Assembly: GCA_003134075.1 (NCBI GenBank)
Contig: PLAI01000141.1
Span: forward strand, 30,352 to 88,713
Origin: Methylocystaceae bacterium
GTDB taxonomy: Bacteria > Pseudomonadota > Alphaproteobacteria > Rhizobiales > Beijerinckiaceae
Reading direction: 5' to 3'
Length of the DNA: 58,362 bases
Below, piece by piece: positions 9,035-36,186 of the stretch. The position numbers and the translations under genes were made by a program. Position 1 is the first letter of the stretch; each line of letters opens with the position of its first letter. Below the pieces are notes generated by a model that saw nothing but the letters and a program-made list of their open reading frames with translations, ran no database searches and was not told the origin of the DNA.

Positions 9035-10483
9035 CTAGCCCCCGATCACCGTCGTGAACACCTGCCCGCCGCGTCCCACGGTGATCTTCCAGTAATAGGA
9101 CTTGGCGCTCGTGATCTGCTCGAGATCGCGCGTCGTGGCGACTTTCCTGTCGTTAATGGCGATAATCACGTCGCCTTTTTGCAGATTGAGCCGCTGCGCC
9201 ATTGAGCCGTCCTCGATCTCGGTCGCTACCACGCCGGTCGAAACGCCCTGGATGGAAAGTTCCTCGGCCACCGCCGGCGAGATGTTCTCGAAGGTCGCGC
9301 CGGCAAAGGGGTTCTGGCCCTTGAGTTTAACGGGATCGCGCTCCGGGATTTCCGGCGCGGCGACGAGCTTCATCGGCGCGACGATCTTCTTTCCGCCGCG
9401 CAAGACGCCAAGGCTCGCCACGCCGCCGAGCGGCTTTGTCGCGAGCCGGTAGCCGACCGCCTCGGGATCGTCCGCGATCTGGCCGTCGACCGAAACGATC
9501 ACGTCGCCCCGCTTGAGGCCGGCTTCCGCCGCCGGTCCCTTAGGGTCGAGATCGGCAAGCAACGCGCCGGTGGGACGCTCCAGCCCGAGACTCTCGGCGA
9601 TTTCCTGCGACAGTGTTTGCAGCGTCGCGCCGAGCCAGGGACGGCGAACCTGCTTGCCGCCGCTCTTGGCCGCCGCGACGACGATCTTGACCATATTGAC
9701 GGGAATCGCGAAGCCAATGCCGATCGATCCGCCGGATTTCGAGAAAATCGCTGAATTGACGCCGATCATGCGCCCGTTCATATCGACCAGCGGTCCGCCG
9801 GAATTTCCCGGATTAATGGCGGCGTCGGTTTGAATGAAAAAGCCGTAATCGGAAATGCCGACCTGCGTGCGGGCCAGCGCCGAAACGATTCCTTGCGTCA
9901 CCGTCTGCCCGACCGCGAAGGGATTGCCGATGGCGAGAACGAGATCGCCGACTTCGAGCGCATCCGAATCGCCCAGCTCCATTACTGGAAAATTGCCGCC
10001 CTCGGTCAGTTTCAGCACGGCGAGATCGGTGCGCGGATCGCGCAGCAGGACTTTGGCGGGAATCTCCCGCTTGTCGGCCAGCGACACCTTAACGTCGGTC
10101 ATGCCCTCGATGACATGATGATTGGTCACGACCAGGCCCGAGGCGTCGACGATGACGCCCGACCCCAGCGATTGCGCGATGTTGCGACCGGGCCGTCCGC
10201 CGCCCTCGCCAAAGAAGCGGCGAAAGATCGGATCGTCGAAAAACGGATTGGCGGGCGCGTGGTCGACGCGCGACGCGAAGACGTTGACGACGGCGGGCTG
10301 CGCCTTCTTCACCACCGGCGCGAAGGAGAGGAGGGCATCCGCGCGCGATTGCGGTATGACCCGTTCCTGTGGCGCGGGCGTCGTCTGCGCCAAGGCCATT
10401 TTTGTCGCGGCGCGCGGCAAGAAGATCGCGCCGATCAAGCAGATCGACGCGCCGACGATCACAAAACGCGGGAAGGGTCGCAT
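9035..10483 (-). CDS. degQ: DegP/DegQ (HtrA, Do family) periplasmic serine protease with two PDZ domains
   Basis: SLGSGVI, VTNHHV, TDLAVL, QTDAAINPGNSGGPL; signal peptide after ATG 10483. Confidence 0.88.
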   Translation of the reverse strand: MRPFPRFVIVGASICLIGAIFLPRAATKMALAQTTPAPQERVIPQSRADALLSFAPVVKKAQPAVVNVFASRVDHAPANPFFDDPIFRRFFGEGGGRPGRNIAQSLGSGVIVDASGLVVTNHHVIEGMTDVKVSLADKREIPAKVLLRDPRTDLAVLKLTEGGNFPVMELGDSDALEVGDLVLAIGNPFAVGQTVTQGIVSALARTQVGISDYGFFIQTDAAINPGNSGGPLVDMNGRMIGVNSAIFSKSGGSIGIGFAIPVNMVKIVVAAAKSGGKQVRRPWLGATLQTLSQEIAESLGLERPTGALLADLDPKGPAAEAGLKRGDVIVSVDGQIADDPEAVGYRLATKPLGGVASLGVLRGGKKIVAPMKLVAAPEIPERDPVKLKGQNPFAGATFENISPAVAEELSIQGVSTGVVATEIEDGSMAQRLNLQKGDVIIAINDRKVATTRDLEQITSAKSYYWKITVGRGGQVFTTVIGG

Positions 10484-11802: not shown

Positions 11803-13515
11803 CTACGCGGGCTCCAAAGCCTTCGCGCCGACGACGTCGAGCCCGCGGAAGATGGCGCAACGCCGGAACACCTCGATATCAGGCGAAACCTGCTTTTGAT
11901 GGCAAAATTTCGCCACGAGTTTCGCGAGTCCCTTGATGTCGCGCCCGGTCGCCGCCGGGAAGGTCGCGACGAGTTCGTCGATGAGCGCCTTGTCGAGCGA
12001 CAGATCGAACTGCCCCGCCATGACGCCCCAAATGCGCCGGCGCGCGTCGTCGTCGGGCGGATAATATTTGATCAACGCGATGCAGCGCGAAACGATGGCT
12101 TCGTCGATGTCGTCGACGCGATTGGTCGTGAGAAACAGCAGCCCGTTAAAATATTCGAGCACGCGCAAGAACACGCCGACGACGGCGTTCATGGCGATGT
12201 TATCGTCGCGGCGCTTGATATAGACGTCCGCCTCGTCGATCAGCATGACCGCGCCCCAGCGCTGCGCGCGCGTCAGTATCTCCTTTAACGCCGTCTCCAT
12301 CGTCGAAACGTTGAGCCCGAGTTGGCCCGAATGAACGCGGTAGAGCGGGCGCTGAATGATTTCCGAATAGACTTCCGCCGTCAGCGTCTTGCCGACGCCG
12401 GGCGGCCCCGCGCAGAGCACCGTCGTGCCGCCAGATTTTCCCGCGACGATATCGTCCATCAACATATCCATTTCGGCGGTCAATATGTCGATGAGGTCGG
12501 TTTGCTCGGGCGGCAGCACCAGCTTTTGCTTGAGTTCGGGCTGGTAGCGATAGGGCGCCATTTCGTCGACATGCACCCACAAATGGTGATGCAAGTCGAG
12601 ATGGAACATCAGAATATACGGATGCACCGGAACGCGCGTGAACATCCCTGCCGGGATTTGCTCTTGCAACTTCAGTATCTCGTCCTCGGCGGCGTAGTGG
12701 TTGCTCTTCGCCGCCTTGCGTACGAAGTGTCCGAGCACGTCGCCGGGCGCTTCGAGCGTTAGACTGCGCGCTGACAAGACGCCTTCGTCATTCACGAGTC
12801 GCGCGTCGCCGCCGCTCGTCGACAAAACGATGATGTCCTTGCGCGACCAGTCCATGTCGCGATGCGAGGCGTTGGGGTCTTCGGCGTGGAAACCCGTTCC
12901 CCTGCCGGTGAACTGCGAGCCATAGCGGCCGCGCCATTCGAAATAGGTTTCGGCCGCGGCGTCGAACGCCTCGATCAACGCCGGGGTTTCGCGCAAGAAG
13001 CCCTTGGCGGCGAGGATTTCGCTGATCGTGCGGCCGGCGACGTCGGCGGCGTTGATACGGACGGAGGTGGATTGCAGCACGCCTTTCGCGTTGGCCTTGA
13101 GTTCGACCAGAATCTTGCCGGATTCGTCGTTGGAGGTGGGAACATAGTCGAAGCGCGTGACGAGATAAGGGAGGGGCTTGCTGGCGACGCTCGCCGTGAA
13201 AAGCCAGCCGCGAATGGCGTTCGTCGTCAAATGCCGCACGAGCGCCGGAAGCGCCATTTCGAGATCGCCGGCCTCGAATCTCACGCCGTCGTTCAGCAGC
13301 GCGGCGCGAATAGTGGCGAGTTGCGCGGCCTTGGCGCGCATGTCCGGCCCCGATCCCCGGTAGCGCTCCTCCAGGAAGTCGAGTTCCTCGCTGGAGAGAT
13401 GCGACAGGTCGACCTCGACGCGCTCGTTGAACCGCAACTGTTCCGCGAGACCGGAATGCGCCGGGAAACGCTCCATCAAGGCTTCGACATGCGCCCGTTC
13501 GATCTGAATGTTCAT
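11803..13515 (-). CDS. AAA+ ATPase with uncharacterised N-terminal region
   Basis: Walker A GPPGVGKT, Walker B MLIDEAD, sensor LTTNR, SRC Arg finger, GRDIK. Confidence 0.85.
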   Translation of the reverse strand: MNIQIERAHVEALMERFPAHSGLAEQLRFNERVEVDLSHLSSEELDFLEERYRGSGPDMRAKAAQLATIRAALLNDGVRFEAGDLEMALPALVRHLTTNAIRGWLFTASVASKPLPYLVTRFDYVPTSNDESGKILVELKANAKGVLQSTSVRINAADVAGRTISEILAAKGFLRETPALIEAFDAAAETYFEWRGRYGSQFTGRGTGFHAEDPNASHRDMDWSRKDIIVLSTSGGDARLVNDEGVLSARSLTLEAPGDVLGHFVRKAAKSNHYAAEDEILKLQEQIPAGMFTRVPVHPYILMFHLDLHHHLWVHVDEMAPYRYQPELKQKLVLPPEQTDLIDILTAEMDMLMDDIVAGKSGGTTVLCAGPPGVGKTLTAEVYSEIIQRPLYRVHSGQLGLNVSTMETALKEILTRAQRWGAVMLIDEADVYIKRRDDNIAMNAVVGVFLRVLEYFNGLLFLTTNRVDDIDEAIVSRCIALIKYYPPDDDARRRIWGVMAGQFDLSLDKALIDELVATFPAATGRDIKGLAKLVAKFCHQKQVSPDIEVFRRCAIFRGLDVVGAKALEPA

Positions 13516-15128
13516 CGCCGTGTCCGTCTCTCTTCTGGATAGGGAGGCAAGGTGAGAATGCGCGCGTCTTCGACCGGCGCGCCGACCGTGAAGTGGTAGA
13601 CATCCTGGAACGCGGTTTGATCCTCCGCGAGGCCTAGCAGAGCATGAACCTCATCGTCGAAGAAGCAGCCGATGCCAGTTCCCGCGAAGCCGCTCGCGCT
13701 GGCGCCGAGATAGAGCGCCTGTCCGATGAGGCCGGCCTCCCAATGCAGGCGCCGATATGCGAAGGCGCCCTCCGCATCGAGCGTCCGGTCGAATTCGGCG
13801 ATCATCGCGACGCTGAAGCAGCCCTTACCGGAAATCGCCTGCAGACAGGCGAGACGCGTCGCCTCGCGTTGGGCGTCGCCGGCTCGCAAGCGAAACAACG
13901 GCAGCTCGCTCGGCTCGACAGGCGCCCATTCGAAATCTCGGGAACAGGCCGCGCGCAATCGCCCGGCGAGACGAGCGTCTCGGGCCAGCAGATAAAGTCC
14001 TGACTCGAGGCCCTCGACGCGGTGGACGAACAAGACGAGCGTCAGCGCCGCCGGCCATGGGAAGGCCGCGAGCAGTGGCTCCGCGCCCGGCATCGTCGCC
14101 GCGAGCATCGAGAAAAACGCGGCGCGGGGCAGCGTTGATTTTCCGTCGAAGCGTTGCGCGCTGCGTCGCCCGCGCACGACCTCGGCGATGGAGGGACCGC
14201 TTGCGCCGGCGGGCTGACACGCCTTCCGCGGCGGGGCGGCTACGCCCGCGCCGCGTGGCTTGCGGCAAAGTTGAAACGCGAGATCGACGAGCGGCCAGCC
14301 GTCGTGATCCTCGCTCAACTGGTTCGCCGCTCCATGCCAGATGCACGCCGCGTCGATAATGCCACGGGGGTCGAAAGGCGCGGGGAGCGAACGATCGACC
14401 TCGATCCAGGCCAATAGTTCGGGGTGCTCGCGCTCGCGCCGATGCGCGGCGTCTTCCCGCGCGAGGCCAAGCAGCGCGGATATTTCGTCGTCGGACGGCT
14501 CGCAAAGGACATGAGCGCGCCAGCCGAGCGCCGCCGCGGCTTGAGCCGCCGCGCCGATCGCATGGCCGGCGTCGAGCTGACAATAACGAAAGGCGCGCTC
14601 GCCATATTTCCAGGCCTCCCGCCACGCTATGGAGCCGAGCGCGAGCAGAAAACCGCCCGGCGGAAGCAGATCCGCGTCGGCGAAACTGGCGCGCGACTCC
14701 AGCGCGTGATCGAGCGGCGCGTAATGATAGAGCGCCGTCGTGTCGGCACCCACATCGCCTGCTCTCAAAATCACCCAGGCTTCCGTAGGATGCAGATTGC
14801 CGCTCGAGGGATTGTTGCGCAGCGCCCAGGTCGATCCCTCGACGCTCTTCCAGGCGCTGAGGCCGAACGCGAGTTCGAGAAACAATCCCAAGGCGTTGCG
14901 ATCGAGCTTCGCCGCGCGCGGCGCGGGACCTGGAAACGAAGGCGTGTCGCCGCCATCGTGCAGCGGAAGCGTGATCCGCGGACTGCCCACGAAGGAGCGA
15001 TAGGGCGACGGTTGCGAAGTCCAGTCGAGAAAGGCCGGACCGAGCGCATAGCGGTTCGGCGCATGTTTGGTGCGCCGGTGATAGCCTCTTATGTCGCTTG
15101 GGAGCCTATCGGCCTGGTGGATTGTCAT
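13512..15128 (-). CDS. SagB/ThcOx-type nitroreductase-fold flavoprotein (two domains)
   Basis: YHRRTKH, LRNNPSSGNLHPTEAW, REAWKYGERAFRYCQLDAGH, GRRSAQRF, GIGCFFDDEVH. Confidence 0.8.
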   Translation of the reverse strand: MTIHQADRLPSDIRGYHRRTKHAPNRYALGPAFLDWTSQPSPYRSFVGSPRITLPLHDGGDTPSFPGPAPRAAKLDRNALGLFLELAFGLSAWKSVEGSTWALRNNPSSGNLHPTEAWVILRAGDVGADTTALYHYAPLDHALESRASFADADLLPPGGFLLALGSIAWREAWKYGERAFRYCQLDAGHAIGAAAQAAAALGWRAHVLCEPSDDEISALLGLAREDAAHRREREHPELLAWIEVDRSLPAPFDPRGIIDAACIWHGAANQLSEDHDGWPLVDLAFQLCRKPRGAGVAAPPRKACQPAGASGPSIAEVVRGRRSAQRFDGKSTLPRAAFFSMLAATMPGAEPLLAAFPWPAALTLVLFVHRVEGLESGLYLLARDARLAGRLRAACSRDFEWAPVEPSELPLFRLRAGDAQREATRLACLQAISGKGCFSVAMIAEFDRTLDAEGAFAYRRLHWEAGLIGQALYLGASASGFAGTGIGCFFDDEVHALLGLAEDQTAFQDVYHFTVGAPVEDARILTLPPYPEERRTRR

Positions 15129-15140
15129 ATATGCCCCGCC

Positions 15141-15755
15141 TCAACGATATCCCTCTTCCGCCAGCACCTGCCGCACGGCGGGCCGCGTCCGCATTAGCGC
15201 GTAATGGGCGCGGCAATTGACCGGCAAATCCATCCCGATTTTGTCGGCCCAGAACTCAACATAGAACAGCGCGGCGTCGGCGATCGAAAAGGCGCCGGCG
15301 ACATAAGACTTTCCGTCGAGCCGGTCATTAACGAGCGCGAACGCCTCGGCCGCGATCCTGCGCCCGTCAGCCTTTATCGCCTCAACGGTTTGATGCTTTG
15401 AAACATATCGCTCGGGCGTGAACACGCGGCGAAAGCCCTCGCCGTGGATGTGACGCGCGCAGAAGTTCAACGTCTCCATGGCGTCATCAGCCGCGCTTTC
15501 GTCCGAAGGCAATAATTTTCGGCGAGGGTAGGCGTTGGCCAGCCATGTCGCGATGGAGACGAAGTCGGTCAGCGCGACGCCGTCGTCGCGAAGCAATGTC
15601 GGAATTGTCCCATTGGGATTGATGGCGAGATATTCGGGCGTCAAATGCTCTCCCTTCGGGAGATTGACGATATAGGCCTCGAAAACCAGGCCTATTTCCT
15701 CGAGCAGAATGTGAATGCCGGTCGAACAGGATCCTGGCACCATATAGAATTTCAT
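15141..15755 (-). CDS. Glutathione S-transferase family protein (beta-class-like)
   Basis: PGSCS N-terminus, INPNGTIPTL, FSIADAALF. Confidence 0.88.
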   Translation of the reverse strand: MKFYMVPGSCSTGIHILLEEIGLVFEAYIVNLPKGEHLTPEYLAINPNGTIPTLLRDDGVALTDFVSIATWLANAYPRRKLLPSDESAADDAMETLNFCARHIHGEGFRRVFTPERYVSKHQTVEAIKADGRRIAAEAFALVNDRLDGKSYVAGAFSIADAALFYVEFWADKIGMDLPVNCRAHYALMRTRPAVRQVLAEEGYR

Positions 15756-15803
15756 TAGGGCCCACGCTTTGATCCGCGGTTGCGATGATATTCAACTCGA
15801 TAA

Positions 15804-15819
15804 CGCAATTCGGGCGCCA
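15804..15819 (-). promoter_or_regulatory. sigma54 -24/-12 promoter for the GST-SagB-AAA operon
   Basis: Minus strand TGGCGCCCGAATTGCG: GG-N10-GC with TGGC and TTGC. Confidence 0.65.
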
Positions 15820-16127
15820 TTCATTCGACCGGAATCCGCCAGTCGCGCCAGCCGCGGCGGCGCCGTGAACGCGGAACCGCTCCGGCGGGTTGGACGCGAA
15901 AAGCCGCGCGCGGGGTATCCGAATAGGACTGATACGGATAAGCCCACGGTTTGCGTCGAGACAGAAAAGCAAAACGAAATTCACCGCGAAGCTGAGAAGA
16001 GCGCTAGGTTTAGTTTAGCCTCATATAAAATGGGCATCGACGCCTCCAAGCAAACAAGTTTGTTCGCATCGCTTCAATCATGTCGCAAATCCGCGTTTAT
16101 TGTCAGCTGGATATACTTTGTGACCCG

Positions 16128-16140
16128 CAAATAGTTGATT
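16128..16140 (-). promoter_or_regulatory. IHF binding site
   Basis: Minus strand AATCAA-CTAT-TTG is an exact match to WATCAANNNNTTR, just upstream of the sigma54 site at 16157. Confidence 0.65.
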
Positions 16141-16156
16141 TTTTTCGGCGCCACCT

Positions 16157-16172
16157 TGGCCCGCATGTTGCG
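16157..16172 (+). promoter_or_regulatory. sigma54 -24/-12 promoter for the FeSII-rubrerythrin operon
   Basis: TGGCCCGCATGTTGCG: GG-N10-GC. Confidence 0.75.
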
Positions 16173-16235
16173 TTTCGCCGCCGGAAGCAATCTAGCGCCG
16201 TCGACGGCGACGGTCGAAAAATCGGGAGGATAGCC

Positions 16236-17144
16236 TTGGCCAACGTGACTTTCTCATCACCCGTGCTTGCGCGCGACATTACGGTCTATGCCATCGCCGG
16301 CGATCGAGGCACGATCTTGGCTGTCGCCAAGGCTCATAAAATTCCCATTCCCTTCGATTGTCAGGATGGCGAATGCGGCTCCTGCCTCGTCGAGGTCAAG
16401 CATCTCAGCCCCCACGTCAAATACGGGATCGCCTTGACCGAGAAGGAAAAGGAAGTTCTGCGGCAATTGGGCAAAATCACCAAGACCGAGATCGAAAACG
16501 CCGAAGTCAACGACATGCCGCCGCGCTATCGCTTGGCCTGTCAATGTTTCGTGCGCAACGAGGACATCATCGTCACCTTCGAAGGCGACCAGACTCTTCC
16601 GGCGCAAGGCCCGCATATCACCCATGCCGCGAACCGCTTCAAAGGCGGTATAGAGATCGCCACGGTTAACGAATTCCTGGGGTACGCCGTGAAGGTCGAA
16701 GAGGACGCCGCCATACATTTCGATGAACTCGCGACGACCATGGAGAGTTGCGGAAATGAGGAAGTGGCCAAACTATTTCGTCAACTCGCTGGCTTTTCGC
16801 GGCTTCATCTCGCCGAGGCGAAGAACCGGGCCGGCTCGCTTGACCTCACCAAGGTCATTCCGCCCGACTACGTATGGCCGAGTCACGCGACGCCGGAGCG
16901 CACCGAGCTTTGGGCCGCCGATCCATCACTGTCGCGGCTTGACGGCTTGAAGGCGGCTCTGCAAGGTGAGCGTCGGGGCTACGAGTTTTATCGCGCCGTG
17001 GTCGCGAAGACCAAGTCGCCGGAAATAGAGGCGATGGCCAAGGAGTTCGTCAAGGAGGAGGCCGAGCACGTCAAAATTCTCGAGGCCTGGATCACGCGCG
17101 AGGAATGGGCGGCGAAGAACGCGAAATCGCGCGAGAACGCCTGA
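16236..17144 (+). CDS. FeSII (Shethna protein II)-like [2Fe-2S] ferredoxin fused to a rubrerythrin/ferritin-like domain
   Basis: TTG start after GGGAGG; IPFDCQDGECGSC ... LTEKEKEVLRQLGKI ... PPRYRLACQ, then a four-helix bundle with EEAEH. Confidence 0.8.
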   Translation: MANVTFSSPVLARDITVYAIAGDRGTILAVAKAHKIPIPFDCQDGECGSCLVEVKHLSPHVKYGIALTEKEKEVLRQLGKITKTEIENAEVNDMPPRYRLACQCFVRNEDIIVTFEGDQTLPAQGPHITHAANRFKGGIEIATVNEFLGYAVKVEEDAAIHFDELATTMESCGNEEVAKLFRQLAGFSRLHLAEAKNRAGSLDLTKVIPPDYVWPSHATPERTELWAADPSLSRLDGLKAALQGERRGYEFYRAVVAKTKSPEIEAMAKEFVKEEAEHVKILEAWITREEWAAKNAKSRENA

Positions 17145-17236
17145 GCGGCGTCCAACGAAGGTCGTGAAGGGGGCGTGGCGAGGCCGGCCCCCTGCTTTTC
17201 CTTCACGAAGCGCGATCAATTCAGGAGGAGCTGAAA

Positions 17237-17713
17237 ATGCAATCCGTCGAAGAATTTCTTGCTTACGCCATCAATGTCGAAACGGAGGCCGCGAGCCGCT
17301 TTGGTCAACTCGCCGACGCGATGGAAGCCTGCGGCAATCGTGAGGTCGGCAAACTGTTTCGTCGGCTCTCGGATTACTCCAGACTGCATCTCGCCGATGC
17401 GCGCGCGCGGTCCGGCTTTCGCGAAATTCCAAAGATGAAGTCCGAGGATTTCGTTTGGCCCGGGTTGGAAAGCCCGGAGACAGCCGCGATCTGGGCCGCC
17501 GATCCGTTCATTGGCCGGGAGCAGGCTCTGGAGATCGCGCTCGACGCCGAAACGGCGGGCTACGAATATTACAAGAACGTGCTCGAAACGACGTCCGATC
17601 CGGAAATCAAAGCGCTGGCGAAGGAGTTTGTCGAGGAGGAGAGCGGCCATGTCGCCGAACTCCGGAAATGGATCGCCGCGCATAAGGCGGGTCAAATCAC
17701 GCCAGCCGATTAG
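17237..17713 (+). CDS. Rubrerythrin/ferritin-like protein without a rubredoxin domain; paralogue of the upstream C-terminal domain
   Basis: AGGAGG RBS; EEFLAYAINVE, CGNREVGKLF, YSRLH, EEESGH. Confidence 0.85.
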   Translation: MQSVEEFLAYAINVETEAASRFGQLADAMEACGNREVGKLFRRLSDYSRLHLADARARSGFREIPKMKSEDFVWPGLESPETAAIWAADPFIGREQALEIALDAETAGYEYYKNVLETTSDPEIKALAKEFVEEESGHVAELRKWIAAHKAGQITPAD

Positions 17714-36096: not shown

Positions 36097-36113
36097 CGCA
36101 AGGCGCGTGCCAG
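36097..36113 (-). promoter_or_regulatory. sigma54 promoter of nifHDKENX
   Basis: Minus strand CTGGCACGCGCCTTGCG, canonical. Confidence 0.92.
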
Positions 36114-36128: not shown

Positions 36129-36141
36129 CAACTAATTGATA
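36129..36141 (-). promoter_or_regulatory. IHF binding site
   Basis: Minus strand TATCAA-TTAG-TTG, exact consensus, in an AT-rich tract between the UAS and the promoter. Confidence 0.75.
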
Positions 36142-36163: not shown

Positions 36164-36186
36164 TGTCGGCTGTTTCAAAGCCGACA
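36164..36186. promoter_or_regulatory. NifA UAS shared by the divergent promoters
   Basis: TGT-TTCAAAGCCG-ACA (36171-36186) within the inverted repeat TGTCGGC...GCCGACA. Confidence 0.75.

What the first reader, a model, noticed from the sequence alone, without database searches (positions are those of the whole stretch)
16236..17713. FeSII/Shethna-II nitrogenase-protection domain fused to a rubrerythrin-like domain, followed by a paralogous partner
SEEN: the N-terminal ~118 aa (16236-~16590) contain VTFSSP, IPFDCQDGECGSC, KHL, LTEKEKEVLRQLGKI and MPPRYRLACQ. KNOWN (sequence recalled from memory): Azotobacter vinelandii FeSII has IYFSSP, IPFECQDGNCGSC, LTDKERNVLKSVGKL and LPPTYRLACQ, including the FeSII-specific insertion absent from ordinary ferredoxins. 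When oxidised, FeSII locks NifH to NifDK in an O2-tolerant complex. SEEN: here the domain is joined by a short linker to a ferritin-like four-helix bundle, the next gene is a stand-alone near-duplicate of that bundle, and both sit behind a sigma54 promoter plus an exact IHF site. INFERENCE: a conformational-protection switch physically wired to a di-iron O2/peroxide sensor or scavenger, possibly as a hetero-oligomer. I know of no characterisation of this architecture.
Basis: partly seen in the sequence, partly recalled or inferred. Interest (0 to 1): 0.92.

Follow-up and report, generated by a model that had tools for sequence, protein, structure and literature searches.

The report
Shethna-type ferredoxin fused to ferritin-like domain
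This nitrogen-fixation gene joins a true relative of the Azotobacter "Shethna protein II", which shields nitrogenase from oxygen, to a ferritin-like metal-binding domain; the pairing is common in nitrogen-fixing bacteria but has never been studied, so it is probably a second, different kind of oxygen guard.

Summary
Window 16236-17144 (+, TTG start, 302 aa) encodes a protein whose residues 2-118 align without gaps to A. vinelandii FeSII (E 9e-35, about 49% identity). The next best ferredoxin in the PDB scores E about 0.05.

Residues 141-302 are a ferritin/rubrerythrin-like four-helix bundle of the COG1633 / PDB 2OH3 type. The next gene (17237-17713) is a free paralog of that bundle. It is 50% identical, so it is an old duplicate and not a near-duplicate.

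A -24/-12 sigma54 promoter lies upstream (16157-16171). The same promoter type occurs in 51-70 of 80 related loci. The IHF match is exact but not conserved, and the window has no exact NifA site.

The fusion is one tight family, with 407 matching stretches in a one-genome-per-species collection. It is mostly alphaproteobacterial. In a 401-genome sample, FeSII-type domains occurred only in nifH-positive genomes. Peat metatranscriptomes hold the gene.

Two differences from the textbook proteins matter. The free C-terminal carboxylate that Azotobacter FeSII places over the NifH cluster cannot exist here. The first ExxH metal motif of the bundle is SxxH.

The same genome also has a canonical stand-alone FeSII. 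I found no paper on the fusion. The function is probably oxygen protection of nitrogenase, but this is inferred and not shown.

The parts
16061..16076 (+). One-mismatch NifA-type upstream site (TGT-N10-TCA), about 80 nt (81 nt) upstream of the -24 element
   Evidence: Read from the sequence. No exact TGT-N10-ACA lies in this spacer. Exact sites at the equivalent position occur in 28 of 80 related loci.
16128..16140 (-). Exact match to the IHF consensus WATCAANNNNTTR, just upstream of the promoter
   Evidence: 3 matches in the window against 0.57 expected; another lies in the nifH promoter region at 36129-36141. It is not conserved in relatives (4 of 81), so its function is uncertain.
16157..16171 (+). 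Sigma54-type -24/-12 promoter TGGCCCGCATGTTGC
   Evidence: The motif TGG[CT]N7TTGC occurs within -260..-20 of the start codon in 51 of 80 related loci (0.013 expected per locus). The relaxed form occurs in 70 of 80. In run X22, RNA contigs begin at 16250 and depth is zero over 15700-16221.
16224..16230 (+). Ribosome-binding site GGGAGGA for the fusion gene
   Evidence: Sequence; it ends 5 nt before TTG 16236.
16236..16589 (+). FeSII (Shethna protein II)-type [2Fe-2S] domain, residues 1-118. It contains Cys42/47/50/102 and the N-loop helices hN1 (69-77) and hN2 (83-91).
   Evidence: Gapless alignment to PDB 5FFI at E 8.7e-35. The AF2 model matches FeSII chain 9cu1_N with TM 0.90. In the tree it lies inside the FeSII family.
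16590..16655 (+). Conserved linker, residues 119-140 (QTLPAQGPHITHAANRFKGGIE)
   Evidence: P122, P126, G137 and G138 are invariant in 40 fusions. The AF2 pLDDT here is only 51-55 and the whole-model pTM is 0.56, so the domain orientation is not fixed in the monomer model.
16656..17144 (+). Ferritin/rubrerythrin-like four-helix bundle (COG1633 / 2OH3 type), residues 141-302, plus the stop codon. Candidate metal ligands are E155, S188-x-x-H191 (with E194), E245 and E275-x-x-H278.
   Evidence: Pfam PF02915. PDB 2OH3 at E 4e-21 and TM 0.73. Invariant residues. Ser in place of Glu across the closer subfamily.
17168..17193 (+). GC-rich intercistronic hairpin between the two genes
   Evidence: Folded. 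A strong hairpin with a different sequence occupies the same spacer in most related loci. The terminator scan did not call it a terminator.
17223..17229 (+). Ribosome-binding site AGGAGGA for the second gene
   Evidence: Sequence.
17237..17713 (+). Free paralog of the bundle ('RBR2', 158 aa), also with SxxH
   Evidence: 50% identity over 146 gapless residues to residues 141-286 of the fusion. 2OH3 at E 8.6e-25. It lies directly downstream of the fusion in 55 of 78 informative loci. Its orthologs are 73-96% identical.

Best explanation
What it is (shown). This is a two-gene module behind a sigma54-type promoter, and in a 401-genome sample its FeSII-type domain was found only in nitrogen fixers. 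Gene 1 encodes a real FeSII-family [2Fe-2S] domain joined by a conserved 22-residue linker to a nif-associated ferritin-like bundle. That bundle's metal site has lost one bridging glutamate. Gene 2 encodes a free paralog of the bundle.

How it most likely works (inferred). It is an oxygen guard for nitrogenase that differs from Azotobacter FeSII.
- When O2 enters, the [2Fe-2S] cluster is oxidised. The conserved D44-K70 / E71-R99 switch then frees the N-loop, and helix hN1 docks on NifH. The four NifH contact residues are all present in this genome.
- The FeSII tail cannot act as the free carboxylate plug over the NifH cluster. Instead the linker leaves from that spot and places the bundle, probably paired with the gene-2 protein, beside the interface.
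- The metal site of the bundle exchanges electrons with the [2Fe-2S] cluster and reacts with O2 or H2O2. It acts either as the trigger that oxidises the switch or as a local scavenger.
For: Identity of the N-domain.
- E 8.7e-35 to FeSII, gapless, including the N-loop insertion.
- The AF2 N-domain matches nitrogenase-bound FeSII 9cu1_N at TM 0.90.
- The fused domains form one clade (SH-aLRT 95) nested among stand-alone FeSII proteins with ...PGGA tails.

Switch and contact residues named in PMC11754109.
- C42/47/50/102, D44, K70, E71, D93 and R99 are kept in 117-119 of the 119 fusion sequences examined.
- R24 is invariant. R72K, K76R/K, E41D and E118D are conservative changes.
- The partner residues are present in the window: the NifH equivalents of E69, R101, N108 and E112, NifK 119-TEDAAVFG-126 and the NifD AIRDW aspartate.

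Link to nitrogen fixation.
- The window carries nifHDK, nifA, nifUSVW and fixABCX.
- In a 401-genome class sample, true nifH was found in 9 genomes. The fusion (3 genomes) or a stand-alone FeSII (4 more) occurred in 7 of those 9 and in none of the 392 nifH-negative genomes.
- Close bundle homologs occurred in 9 of the 9 nifH-positive genomes and in 1 of the 392 nifH-negative ones.
- In one genome, the separate FeSII and bundle genes both lie in the nif/fix cluster, with the bundle gene directly after fixX.

Regulation and expression.
- The sigma54 promoter is conserved in 51-70 of 80 loci. Exact NifA sites lie upstream of it in 28.
- Peat metatranscriptomes hold the gene at high depth, with nothing upstream of it.
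Against: - No binding, redox or activity data exist for any member.
- The C-terminal carboxylate A122, which the solved complex places directly above the NifH cluster, cannot exist in a fusion. The linker would have to escape from a buried interface.
- N73 is Glu and K63 is Tyr in the fusion clade.
- The bundle lacks one of the six canonical di-iron ligands (S188). It may therefore bind one metal, or none, and may not react with O2.
- The genome keeps a canonical stand-alone FeSII, so classical conformational protection may be done by that protein.
- This window has no exact NifA site.
- In most related loci I saw no window-type nif or fix gene within 8 kb of the pair.
- AF2 gives no defined domain arrangement (pTM 0.56).
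Confidence: 0.42

Rival explanations
1. Free-standing scavenger. The [2Fe-2S] domain is only the electron-entry module of an O2 or H2O2 reductase, as the rubredoxin domain is in rubrerythrin. It is fed by ferredoxin or FixABCX. The protein lowers reactive oxygen in nitrogen-fixing cells without touching nitrogenase.
For: An iron-sulfur domain joined to a ferritin-like bundle is the rubrerythrin design (established knowledge). The bundle passes Pfam Rubrerythrin. Close bundle homologs occur in all 9 nifH-positive sample genomes, including 2 that have no FeSII-type domain, so the bundle has a role of its own. Adjacency to fixABCX recurs. Loss of the C-terminal plug fits a protein that no longer docks on NifH.
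Against: The most conserved surface of the N-domain is the NifH-binding helix hN1 and the redox-switch residues. A plain electron-transfer domain would not need these. R24, a NifD contact in Azotobacter, is invariant in the fusion clade but is mostly Thr in alphaproteobacterial stand-alone FeSII. The metal site is not the canonical peroxidase site.
Confidence: 0.25
2. Classical passive conformational protection. The FeSII domain does everything, and the bundle (with its free paralog) is only an oligomerisation or scaffold element. It would replace the FeSII homodimer and filament geometry.
For: All FeSII switch residues are kept. Four-helix bundles of this superfamily commonly form dimers (general knowledge). 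The paired paralog suggests a hetero-oligomer.
Against: Candidate metal ligands E155, H191, E245, E275 and H278 are invariant across fusions and are kept in most intact free bundle homologs. A mere scaffold would not need them. The C-terminal plug is missing.
Confidence: 0.12
3. Iron or cluster handling. The pair resembles bacterioferritin with its [2Fe-2S] partner Bfd. It would store or release iron, or help repair oxidised nitrogenase clusters.
For: After 2OH3, the fold search hits are bacterioferritins and ferritins. The module lies next to nifU, nifS and nifW in this window.
Against: The ferritin hits have low TM (0.47-0.61) and 15-22% identity. No ferritin or encapsulin family cut-off is reached. 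Nothing points to a cage-forming protein.
Confidence: 0.08
4. Ordinary electron donor in the FixABCX-to-nitrogenase chain.
For: It neighbours fixABCX here and in several relatives.
Against: Azotobacter FeSII has a midpoint potential of -262 mV against -420 mV for NifH, so electrons flow from NifH to FeSII and not the reverse (PMC11754109). The window already encodes dedicated ferredoxins, according to notes from the earlier scan.
Confidence: 0.04

Closest known systems
FeSII / Shethna protein II of Azotobacter vinelandii and A. beijerinckii (PDB 5FFI, 8RHO, 9CU0-2, 9IEY; PMC11754109)
   Same: The same fold and about 49% identity over all 117 aligned residues with no gap. The same four Cys ligands. 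The same N-loop insertion with helices hN1 and hN2. The same D44-K70 and E71-R99 switch pairs. Basic residues at positions 72 and 76 that bind NifH. Found only in nitrogen fixers.
   Different: It is fused through a conserved linker to a 160-residue bundle, so it has no free C-terminal ...PGGA carboxylate to sit over the NifH cluster. N73 is Glu and K63 is Tyr. It is driven by a sigma54 promoter and here lies in the nif cluster, whereas the Azotobacter gene is monocistronic and outside the nif clusters (PMC4465626). It coexists with a canonical stand-alone paralog in the same genome.
COG1633 protein of Magnetospirillum magnetotacticum, PDB 2OH3 (structural genomics, function unknown)
   Same: It is the closest solved relative of both bundles (E 4e-21 and 9e-25; 34-36% identity in the fold alignments; TM 0.73). 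It has the same SxxH in place of the first ExxH (FSTLH) and the same long conserved loop between helices B and C.
   Different: 2OH3 is a stand-alone protein. Nothing about its metal content or partners could be retrieved here.
Rubrerythrin (for example Desulfovibrio vulgaris, PDB 1RYT)
   Same: A ferritin-like four-helix bundle joined to an iron-sulfur electron-transfer domain. It hits the same Pfam family, PF02915.
   Different: The iron-sulfur domain here is an N-terminal [2Fe-2S] FeSII type, not a C-terminal Cys4 rubredoxin type. One bridging Glu is Ser. Identity is only 16% and TM is 0.46-0.48.
Bacterioferritin with its [2Fe-2S] partner Bfd
   Same: A [2Fe-2S] protein working with a ferritin-fold partner.
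   Different: Bfd has a different fold (the BFD-like domain, as in the NifU of this window). Bacterioferritin forms haem-containing 24-mers. There is no sign of either here.

Membership tests
FeSII / Shethna protein II | Sequence homology over the whole protein, clearly above generic Fer2 ferredoxins | tested here: met
   E 8.7e-35 against about 0.05 for the next ferredoxin. The tree places it inside the family.
FeSII / Shethna protein II | Four Cys ligands of the [2Fe-2S] cluster (C42, C47, C50, C102) | tested here: met
   Present in the window protein and in 119 of 119 fusions.
FeSII / Shethna protein II | N-loop insertion with helices hN1 (69-78) and hN2 (84-91), absent from other adrenodoxin-type ferredoxins | tested here: met
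   Gapless alignment through residues 59-96. AF2 predicts helices at 69-77 and 83-91. TM 0.90 to the nitrogenase-bound chain 9cu1_N.
FeSII / Shethna protein II | Redox-switch salt bridges D44-K70 and E71-R99 | tested here: met
   All four residues are kept in 117-119 of 119 fusions; their roles are taken from PMC11754109.
FeSII / Shethna protein II | NifH-contact residues R72, N73, K76, E41 and E118 | tested here: inconclusive
   K72, R/K76, D41 and D118 are conservative replacements, but N73 is an invariant Glu. The NifH partner residues are present.
FeSII / Shethna protein II | Free C-terminal carboxylate (A122, ...PGGA tail) placed over the NifH [4Fe-4S] cluster | tested here: not met
   The chain continues into the linker and bundle. 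Stand-alone relatives, including this genome's own paralog, keep ...PGGA.
FeSII / Shethna protein II | NifD contacts R24 and K63 | tested here: inconclusive
   R24 is invariant. Position 63 is Tyr, with Lys at 62.
FeSII / Shethna protein II | O2-dependent ternary complex with NifH and NifDK; homodimer | not testable with these tools
   Only single-chain structure prediction is available, and there are no biochemical data.
Rubrerythrin / ferritin-like di-iron bundle (Pfam PF02915) | Match to the family model above its curated cut-off | tested here: met
   44.6 and 41.7 bits against a cut-off of 22.8.
Rubrerythrin / ferritin-like di-iron bundle (Pfam PF02915) | Two E...ExxH half-sites (six ligands) | tested here: not met
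   The first ExxH is S188-R-L-H191 in the fusion and SRLH in the paralog. It is FSTLH in 2OH3. Ser holds in homologs of about 33% identity or more; Glu appears only in more distant ones.
Rubrerythrin / ferritin-like di-iron bundle (Pfam PF02915) | Rubredoxin-like Cys4 domain of true rubrerythrins | tested here: not met
   No such domain is present. NCBIfam nigerythrin scores 16 bits against a cut-off of 340.
NifA / sigma54 regulon | -24/-12 promoter (GG-N10-GC) upstream of the gene | tested here: met
   TGGCCCGCATGTTGC at 16157-16171. Conserved in 51-70 of 80 relatives against 0.013-0.036 expected per locus.
NifA / sigma54 regulon | NifA upstream activator site TGT-N10-ACA | tested here: inconclusive
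   This window has only a one-mismatch site. Exact, correctly placed sites occur in 28 of 80 relatives.
NifA / sigma54 regulon | Expression dependent on NifA under nitrogen-fixing conditions | not testable with these tools
   Only presence in peat metatranscriptomes could be shown.

The most novel reading that the evidence does not exclude
The fusion is an active guard. It docks on NifH as FeSII does. Its [2Fe-2S] cluster, which lies 12.5 A from the NifH [4Fe-4S] cluster in the Azotobacter complex, draws electrons from NifH and passes them to the remodelled metal site of the bundle, which is paired with the gene-2 protein. That site reduces O2 or H2O2 right at the most oxygen-sensitive spot of nitrogenase. 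Protection would then be catalytic, not only steric.
Probability: 0.15. Interest if true: 0.85.

Novelty: new variant of a known kind. Interest (0 to 1): 0.63.

Why it matters
Conformational protection of nitrogenase by FeSII has been treated as an Azotobacter speciality, and its structural basis was solved only in 2025. Three points make this family worth attention.

- **FeSII-type domains are widespread.** They occur in alphaproteobacterial nitrogen fixers such as methanotrophs, Rhodopseudomonas and photosynthetic Bradyrhizobium. They also occur in some Acidobacteriota and Vulcanimicrobiota genomes, most often as this fusion.
- **Oxygen tolerance becomes testable in easy organisms.** The family gives genetically tractable bacteria in which to ask how non-Azotobacter diazotrophs tolerate oxygen.
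- **It offers a second design for engineering.** Efforts to express nitrogenase in oxygen-rich plant organelles could draw on a different protective module.

The remodelled metal site (SxxH) is itself an unstudied variant of the ferritin-like di-iron motif.

Tried and rejected
**Ideas tested and dropped**
- The longer frame from ATG 16080 (354 aa). Homologs start at MANVTF, the promoter lies inside the extension, and RNA contigs start at 16250.
- The idea that loss of R92 co-varies with loss of the free C-terminus. R92 holds the partner's C-terminal carboxylate in Azotobacter. However, N92 is also the rule in alphaproteobacterial stand-alone FeSII proteins that keep ...PGGA.
- The idea that the module always sits in a nif cluster. 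In most of the 80 loci, including R. palustris BisB18, a Bradyrhizobium and Methylocystis rosea, I saw no window-type nif or fix gene within 8 kb.
- The IHF site as a family feature. It occurs in only 4 of 81 upstream regions.
- The intercistronic hairpin as an intrinsic terminator. The scan does not call it one, and most relatives lack a U-run.

**Attempts that yielded little**
- The first AF2 model, built from 40 close homologs, was poor for the N-domain (pLDDT below 50). I replaced it with a 149-row alignment.
- Stand-alone FeSII and bundle genes of other diazotrophs showed no consistent sigma54 promoter.
- Literature: ten searches and several papers gave no description of the fusion. The Narehood et al. 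Nature 2025 paper and Oda et al. 2005 are not held. I recalled that the R. palustris locus tags are RPA1927 and RPA1928, but this could not be verified.

- Read laying closed, before nifH expression could be compared.
- The genome search closed, before nifH and extra FeSII copies could be checked in the named fusion-bearing genomes.
Full report
**1. What is in the sequence**

The plus strand of window 16236-17144 carries a 302-codon frame. It starts at TTG, 5 nt after a GGGAGGA ribosome-binding site. A second frame of 158 codons follows at 17237-17713, behind an AGGAGGA site.

The longer frame from ATG 16080 is not the gene, for three reasons:
- Relatives are 298-302 aa and begin MANVTF.
- The sigma54 promoter lies inside the extension.
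- Metatranscriptome contigs begin at 16250.

The surrounding genes are a nitrogen-fixation cluster.
- On the minus strand, fixX, fixC, fixB and fixA converge on the pair.
- Beyond them lie nifW, a hexapeptide transferase, a homocitrate-synthase-type gene, and nifS- and nifU-type genes.
- Further on are nifH and nifD, with nifA on the plus strand.
- Upstream and divergent are a GST, a SagB-type dehydrogenase and an AAA+ ATPase.

**2. The N-terminal domain is a true FeSII**

*Sequence.* Against all PDB sequences, residues 2-118 align to residues 2-118 of A. vinelandii FeSII with no gap at E 8.7e-35. The next ferredoxin scores E about 0.05. The alignment runs through the N-loop, the insertion that sets FeSII apart from other adrenodoxin-type ferredoxins (PMC11754109).

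*Predicted fold.* A first AF2 model from 40 close homologs was poor for this domain. A second model from 149 rows gave pLDDT of 74-89 for the domain and helices at 69-77 and 83-91. Its best structural match is the FeSII chain of the nitrogenase-bound filament, 9cu1_N, at TM 0.90 and 47% identity. Other FeSII entries follow, and R. capsulatus FdC comes only at E 6e-4.

*Tree.* I built a maximum-likelihood tree of 104 FeSII-type domains (quick search; short alignment, many unresolved forks).
- The fused domains form one clade (SH-aLRT 95).
- That clade is nested among stand-alone proteins that end ...PGGA.
- Azotobacter FeSII sits, on a long branch, in the part of the tree that holds those stand-alone proteins.
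- A group of 133-aa stand-alone proteins, for example from Rhodoblastus, sits inside the fusion clade and keeps the first 15 or so linker residues (GDETxPxK). These look like secondary losses of the bundle.

**3. Residue-level comparison with the solved mechanism**

Franke et al. (PMC11754109) name the working residues of FeSII. The alignment is gapless, so the numbering carries over directly. The table compares them with 119 fusion sequences.

| Role in Azotobacter FeSII | Residue(s) | State in the fusion family |
|---|---|---|
| Cluster ligands | C42, C47, C50, C102 | kept in all 119 |
| Switch and N-loop pairs | D44, K70, E71, R99, D93 | kept in 117-119 of 119 |
| Contact over the NifDK pseudo-axis | R24 | invariant (mostly Thr in alphaproteobacterial stand-alone FeSII) |
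| Contacts, conservative changes | E41, R72, K76, E118 | D, K, R/K, D |
| Contacts, non-conservative changes | N73, K63, K53, R92 | E (invariant), mostly Y, E/Q, N |

The partner residues are present in this genome:
- NifH has the equivalents of E69, R101, N108 and E112. I placed the Azotobacter numbering by anchoring on the CAGRG motif.
- NifK reads 119-TEDAAVFG-126.
- NifD has the AIRDW aspartate.

One defining feature fails. In Azotobacter the C-terminal residue A122 puts its free carboxylate directly above the NifH [4Fe-4S] cluster. In the fusion the chain continues as D118-QTLPAQGPHITHAANRFKGG into the bundle.

I checked whether the loss of R92 tracks this. R92 holds the partner's carboxylate in the reduced state. 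It does not track: N92 is also the rule in stand-alone alphaproteobacterial FeSII proteins that keep ...PGGA.

**4. The C-terminal domain and the second gene**

*Family.* Both pass Pfam Rubrerythrin (44.6 and 41.7 bits; cut-off 22.8). Neither reaches any curated NCBIfam cut-off. Their closest solved relative is 2OH3, an uncharacterised COG1633 protein of Magnetospirillum (E 4e-21 and 9e-25; TM 0.73). Ferritins, bacterioferritins and rubrerythrin follow far behind.

*Paralogy.* The two are 50% identical over 146 gapless residues. Each is separately conserved: fusions at 71-96% and gene-2 orthologs at 73-96%. The duplication is therefore old and both copies are under selection.

*Metal site.* Invariant candidate ligands are E155, H191, E245, E275 and H278. 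The position of the first bridging Glu is Ser.
- It reads S188-R-L-H191 in the fusion, SRLH in the paralog and FSTLH in 2OH3.
- Across library representatives, Ser holds in homologs of about 33% identity or more.
- Canonical Glu appears only in more distant homologs of 25-32% identity.
- An acidic residue three positions after H191 (E194) is invariant in the fusions.

The site is thus a remodelled, asymmetric version of the di-iron motif. Whether it binds two irons is unknown.

*Linker.* The 22-residue linker is conserved in sequence, but its pLDDT is only 51-55 and the model pTM is 0.56. The model therefore shows two well-folded domains with no fixed mutual orientation. A conserved but unstructured linker suggests that it folds against a partner.

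**5. Regulation and expression**

*Promoter.* TGGCCCGCATGTTGC (16157-16171) fits the -24/-12 consensus. Among 80 related loci, TGG[CT]N7TTGC occurs within -260..-20 of the start in 51 (0.013 expected per locus). The relaxed form occurs in 70 (0.036 expected). Twenty-eight also have an exact TGT-N10-ACA 30-200 nt further upstream, for example in Rhodopseudomonas, Bradyrhizobium and Sphingobium.

*This window.* It has only a one-mismatch NifA site at 16061-16076. The IHF match at 16128-16140 is exact but not conserved.

*Spacer.* A GC-rich hairpin sits between the two genes (17168-17193). Most relatives have a strong hairpin of a different sequence in the same spacer. It is not a canonical terminator. 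It could set the ratio of the two products.

*Expression.* The genome is a peat or permafrost metagenome bin. Several peat metatranscriptome runs hold the gene.
- In run X22, overlapping contigs cover 16250 to beyond 18300 at word depths of 128-490.
- The region 15700-16221 has depth zero in that run.
- One contig crosses the spacer into gene 2 and on into fixX.
- Contigs carry no strand, so co-transcription is likely but not proven.

**6. Distribution**

*Abundance.* The 5.8-billion-protein search returned 1077 hits of compatible length, and the best 120 are all Fer2 plus Rubrerythrin proteins of about 300 aa. At 50% clustering the full-length fusion collapses to essentially one cluster. In the one-genome-per-species collection, 407 stretches encode a relative.

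*Taxa.* The best 80 are all full-length fusions:
- Methylocystis, Methylocapsa, Rhodopseudomonas, Bradyrhizobium, Rhodoblastus, Rhodoplanes and Rhodomicrobium;
- Acetobacterales, Rhodospirillales, Sphingomonadales and Rhizomicrobium;
- four Terriglobia (Acidobacteriota) and two Vulcanimicrobiota bins.

*Neighbourhood.* Gene 2 follows directly in 55 of 78 informative loci. Other neighbours vary. fixABCX is adjacent in several loci, and in the Vulcanimicrobiota it lies on the same strand just upstream of the pair. In most loci I saw no window-type nif or fix gene within 8 kb.

*Co-occurrence with nifH.* I sampled 401 genomes evenly across the class.
- True nifH occurs in 9.
- The fusion occurs in 3 of these, and a stand-alone FeSII-type gene in 4 more.
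- None of the 392 nifH-negative genomes has an FeSII-type domain.
- Close bundle homologs (E 1e-23 or better) occur in 9 of the 9 nifH-positive genomes and in 1 of the 392 nifH-negative ones.

*Split form.* In one sampled genome the two parts are separate genes inside the nif/fix cluster. The bundle gene comes 16 nt after fixX, and the FeSII gene lies between the nifB region and nifH. This is the split form of the fusion, and it argues that the two parts work together.

*Second copy.* This genome also has a canonical stand-alone FeSII of 121 aa that ends FTGEPGGA. It is 60% identical to the fused domain. It lies on another contig next to a cytochrome c gene and away from nif. That arrangement resembles Azotobacter, where the FeSII gene is monocistronic and outside the nif clusters (PMC4465626). 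The two other fusion-bearing sample genomes show no stand-alone copy.

The genome search closed, so nifH could not be checked in the named fusion carriers.

**7. How it most likely works**

*Shown.*
- It belongs to the FeSII family, and the cluster ligands and switch residues are kept.
- It is fused to a nif-associated bundle with a remodelled site.
- The promoter type is conserved.
- In the 401-genome sample its parts are tied to nifH-positive genomes, and it is expressed in situ.

*Inferred.* I take it to be an oxygen guard for nitrogenase.
- Helix hN1 and the switch residues are the best-conserved surface of the N-domain. A plain electron-transfer domain would not need them, so I expect redox-gated docking on NifH to be retained.
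- The free carboxylate plug is gone and the linker leaves from exactly that point. The bound geometry must therefore differ, and the bundle would sit beside the NifH cluster.
- A [2Fe-2S] domain fused to a ferritin-like metal site normally means electron transfer between them. The bundle would then serve as the O2-reactive trigger of the switch or as a local O2/H2O2 scavenger. The gene-2 protein is its likely partner.

*Confidence.* I give this picture about 0.42. The main rival, at 0.25, is a free scavenger that never touches nitrogenase. The other rivals are a purely passive protector with a scaffold bundle (0.12), iron or cluster handling (0.08) and an ordinary electron donor (0.04).

**8. 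Comparison and novelty**

It is a member of the FeSII family by homology, but it fails one defining feature, the free C-terminal carboxylate. It should not be filed as an orthodox FeSII. It hits the Pfam Rubrerythrin family but fails the six-ligand motif and lacks the rubredoxin domain, so it is not a rubrerythrin.

Ten full-text searches and the papers read gave no description of the architecture. Databases call it "rubrerythrin/ferredoxin", "ferritin family protein" or "2Fe-2S cluster-binding protein". One comparative-genomics paper lists an unspecified "fer2" among candidate NifA targets in Rhizobiales and Rhodospirillales (PMC4999443). That may or may not be this gene.

Earlier notes of this scan describe the same family in three other genomes and reach similar readings. 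They are not independent evidence. I re-tested their main claims here.

I rate it a new variant of a known kind.

Noticed in passing
own genome, contig C130:44549-44899 (locus L002 1486-1890, minus strand): A canonical stand-alone FeSII paralog of 121 aa that ends FTGEPGGA. It is 60% identical to the fused domain. It lies next to a c-type cytochrome gene and a polyketide-cyclase-like gene, away from the nif cluster.
   Followed up: partly
window 17168-17193, and the same spacer in loci L006-L082: A strong GC-rich hairpin sits between the fusion gene and its paralog in most genera. The sequences differ but the stems are kept, and usually no U-run follows. It may be an intercistronic mRNA-stability or attenuation element that sets the ratio of the two proteins.
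   Followed up: partly
window 11803-15755 (minus strand); L052 and L053 downstream of the pair: The AAA+ ATPase, GST and SagB-type dehydrogenase that lie divergent from the fusion here also lie next to the fusion pair in two Sphingomonadales loci (AAA+ in both; GST and SagB in L053). There the order is fusion, paralog, a FixX-like ferredoxin, AAA+. This may be a recurrent association.
   Followed up: no
proteins P0320, P0330, P0335 and others (Rhodoblastus and relatives): Stand-alone FeSII-type proteins of 133 aa nest inside the fusion clade and keep the first 15 or so linker residues (GDETxPxK...). They look like fusions that lost the bundle.
   Followed up: partly
L055, L060, L061, L065, L075, L080: Full-length fusions at 72-75% identity occur in Terriglobia (Acidobacteriota) and Vulcanimicrobiota bins. 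In the two Vulcanimicrobiota loci (L055, L080) the order is nifS-nifV-nifW-fixABCX-fusion-paralog on one strand. This suggests transfer together with nif genes.
   Followed up: no
L006-L020 (Methylocystis), 31-39 nt upstream of the start codon: A perfect palindrome of NifA-site form (for example TGTCTGAGATCAGACA) lies downstream of the putative -24/-12 element, which is at about -145. A NifA site is not expected in that position. It could be an operator or a leader hairpin.
   Followed up: no
L023 and L024 (Methylocapsa palsarum NE2): This isolate has two fusion genes on different contigs (86-88% identity to the window protein). One has a free bundle paralog 5 kb upstream instead of directly downstream.
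   Followed up: no
L089 (sample genome G219), 9486-9926: In a diazotroph without the fusion, the free bundle gene starts 16 nt after fixX on the same strand. It appears to be the fifth gene of the fixABCX operon.
   Followed up: partly
window 36129-36141 (minus strand): A second exact IHF consensus match lies between the nifH -24/-12 promoter (36098-36112) and its NifA site (36171-36186). This is the classic arrangement.
   Followed up: no
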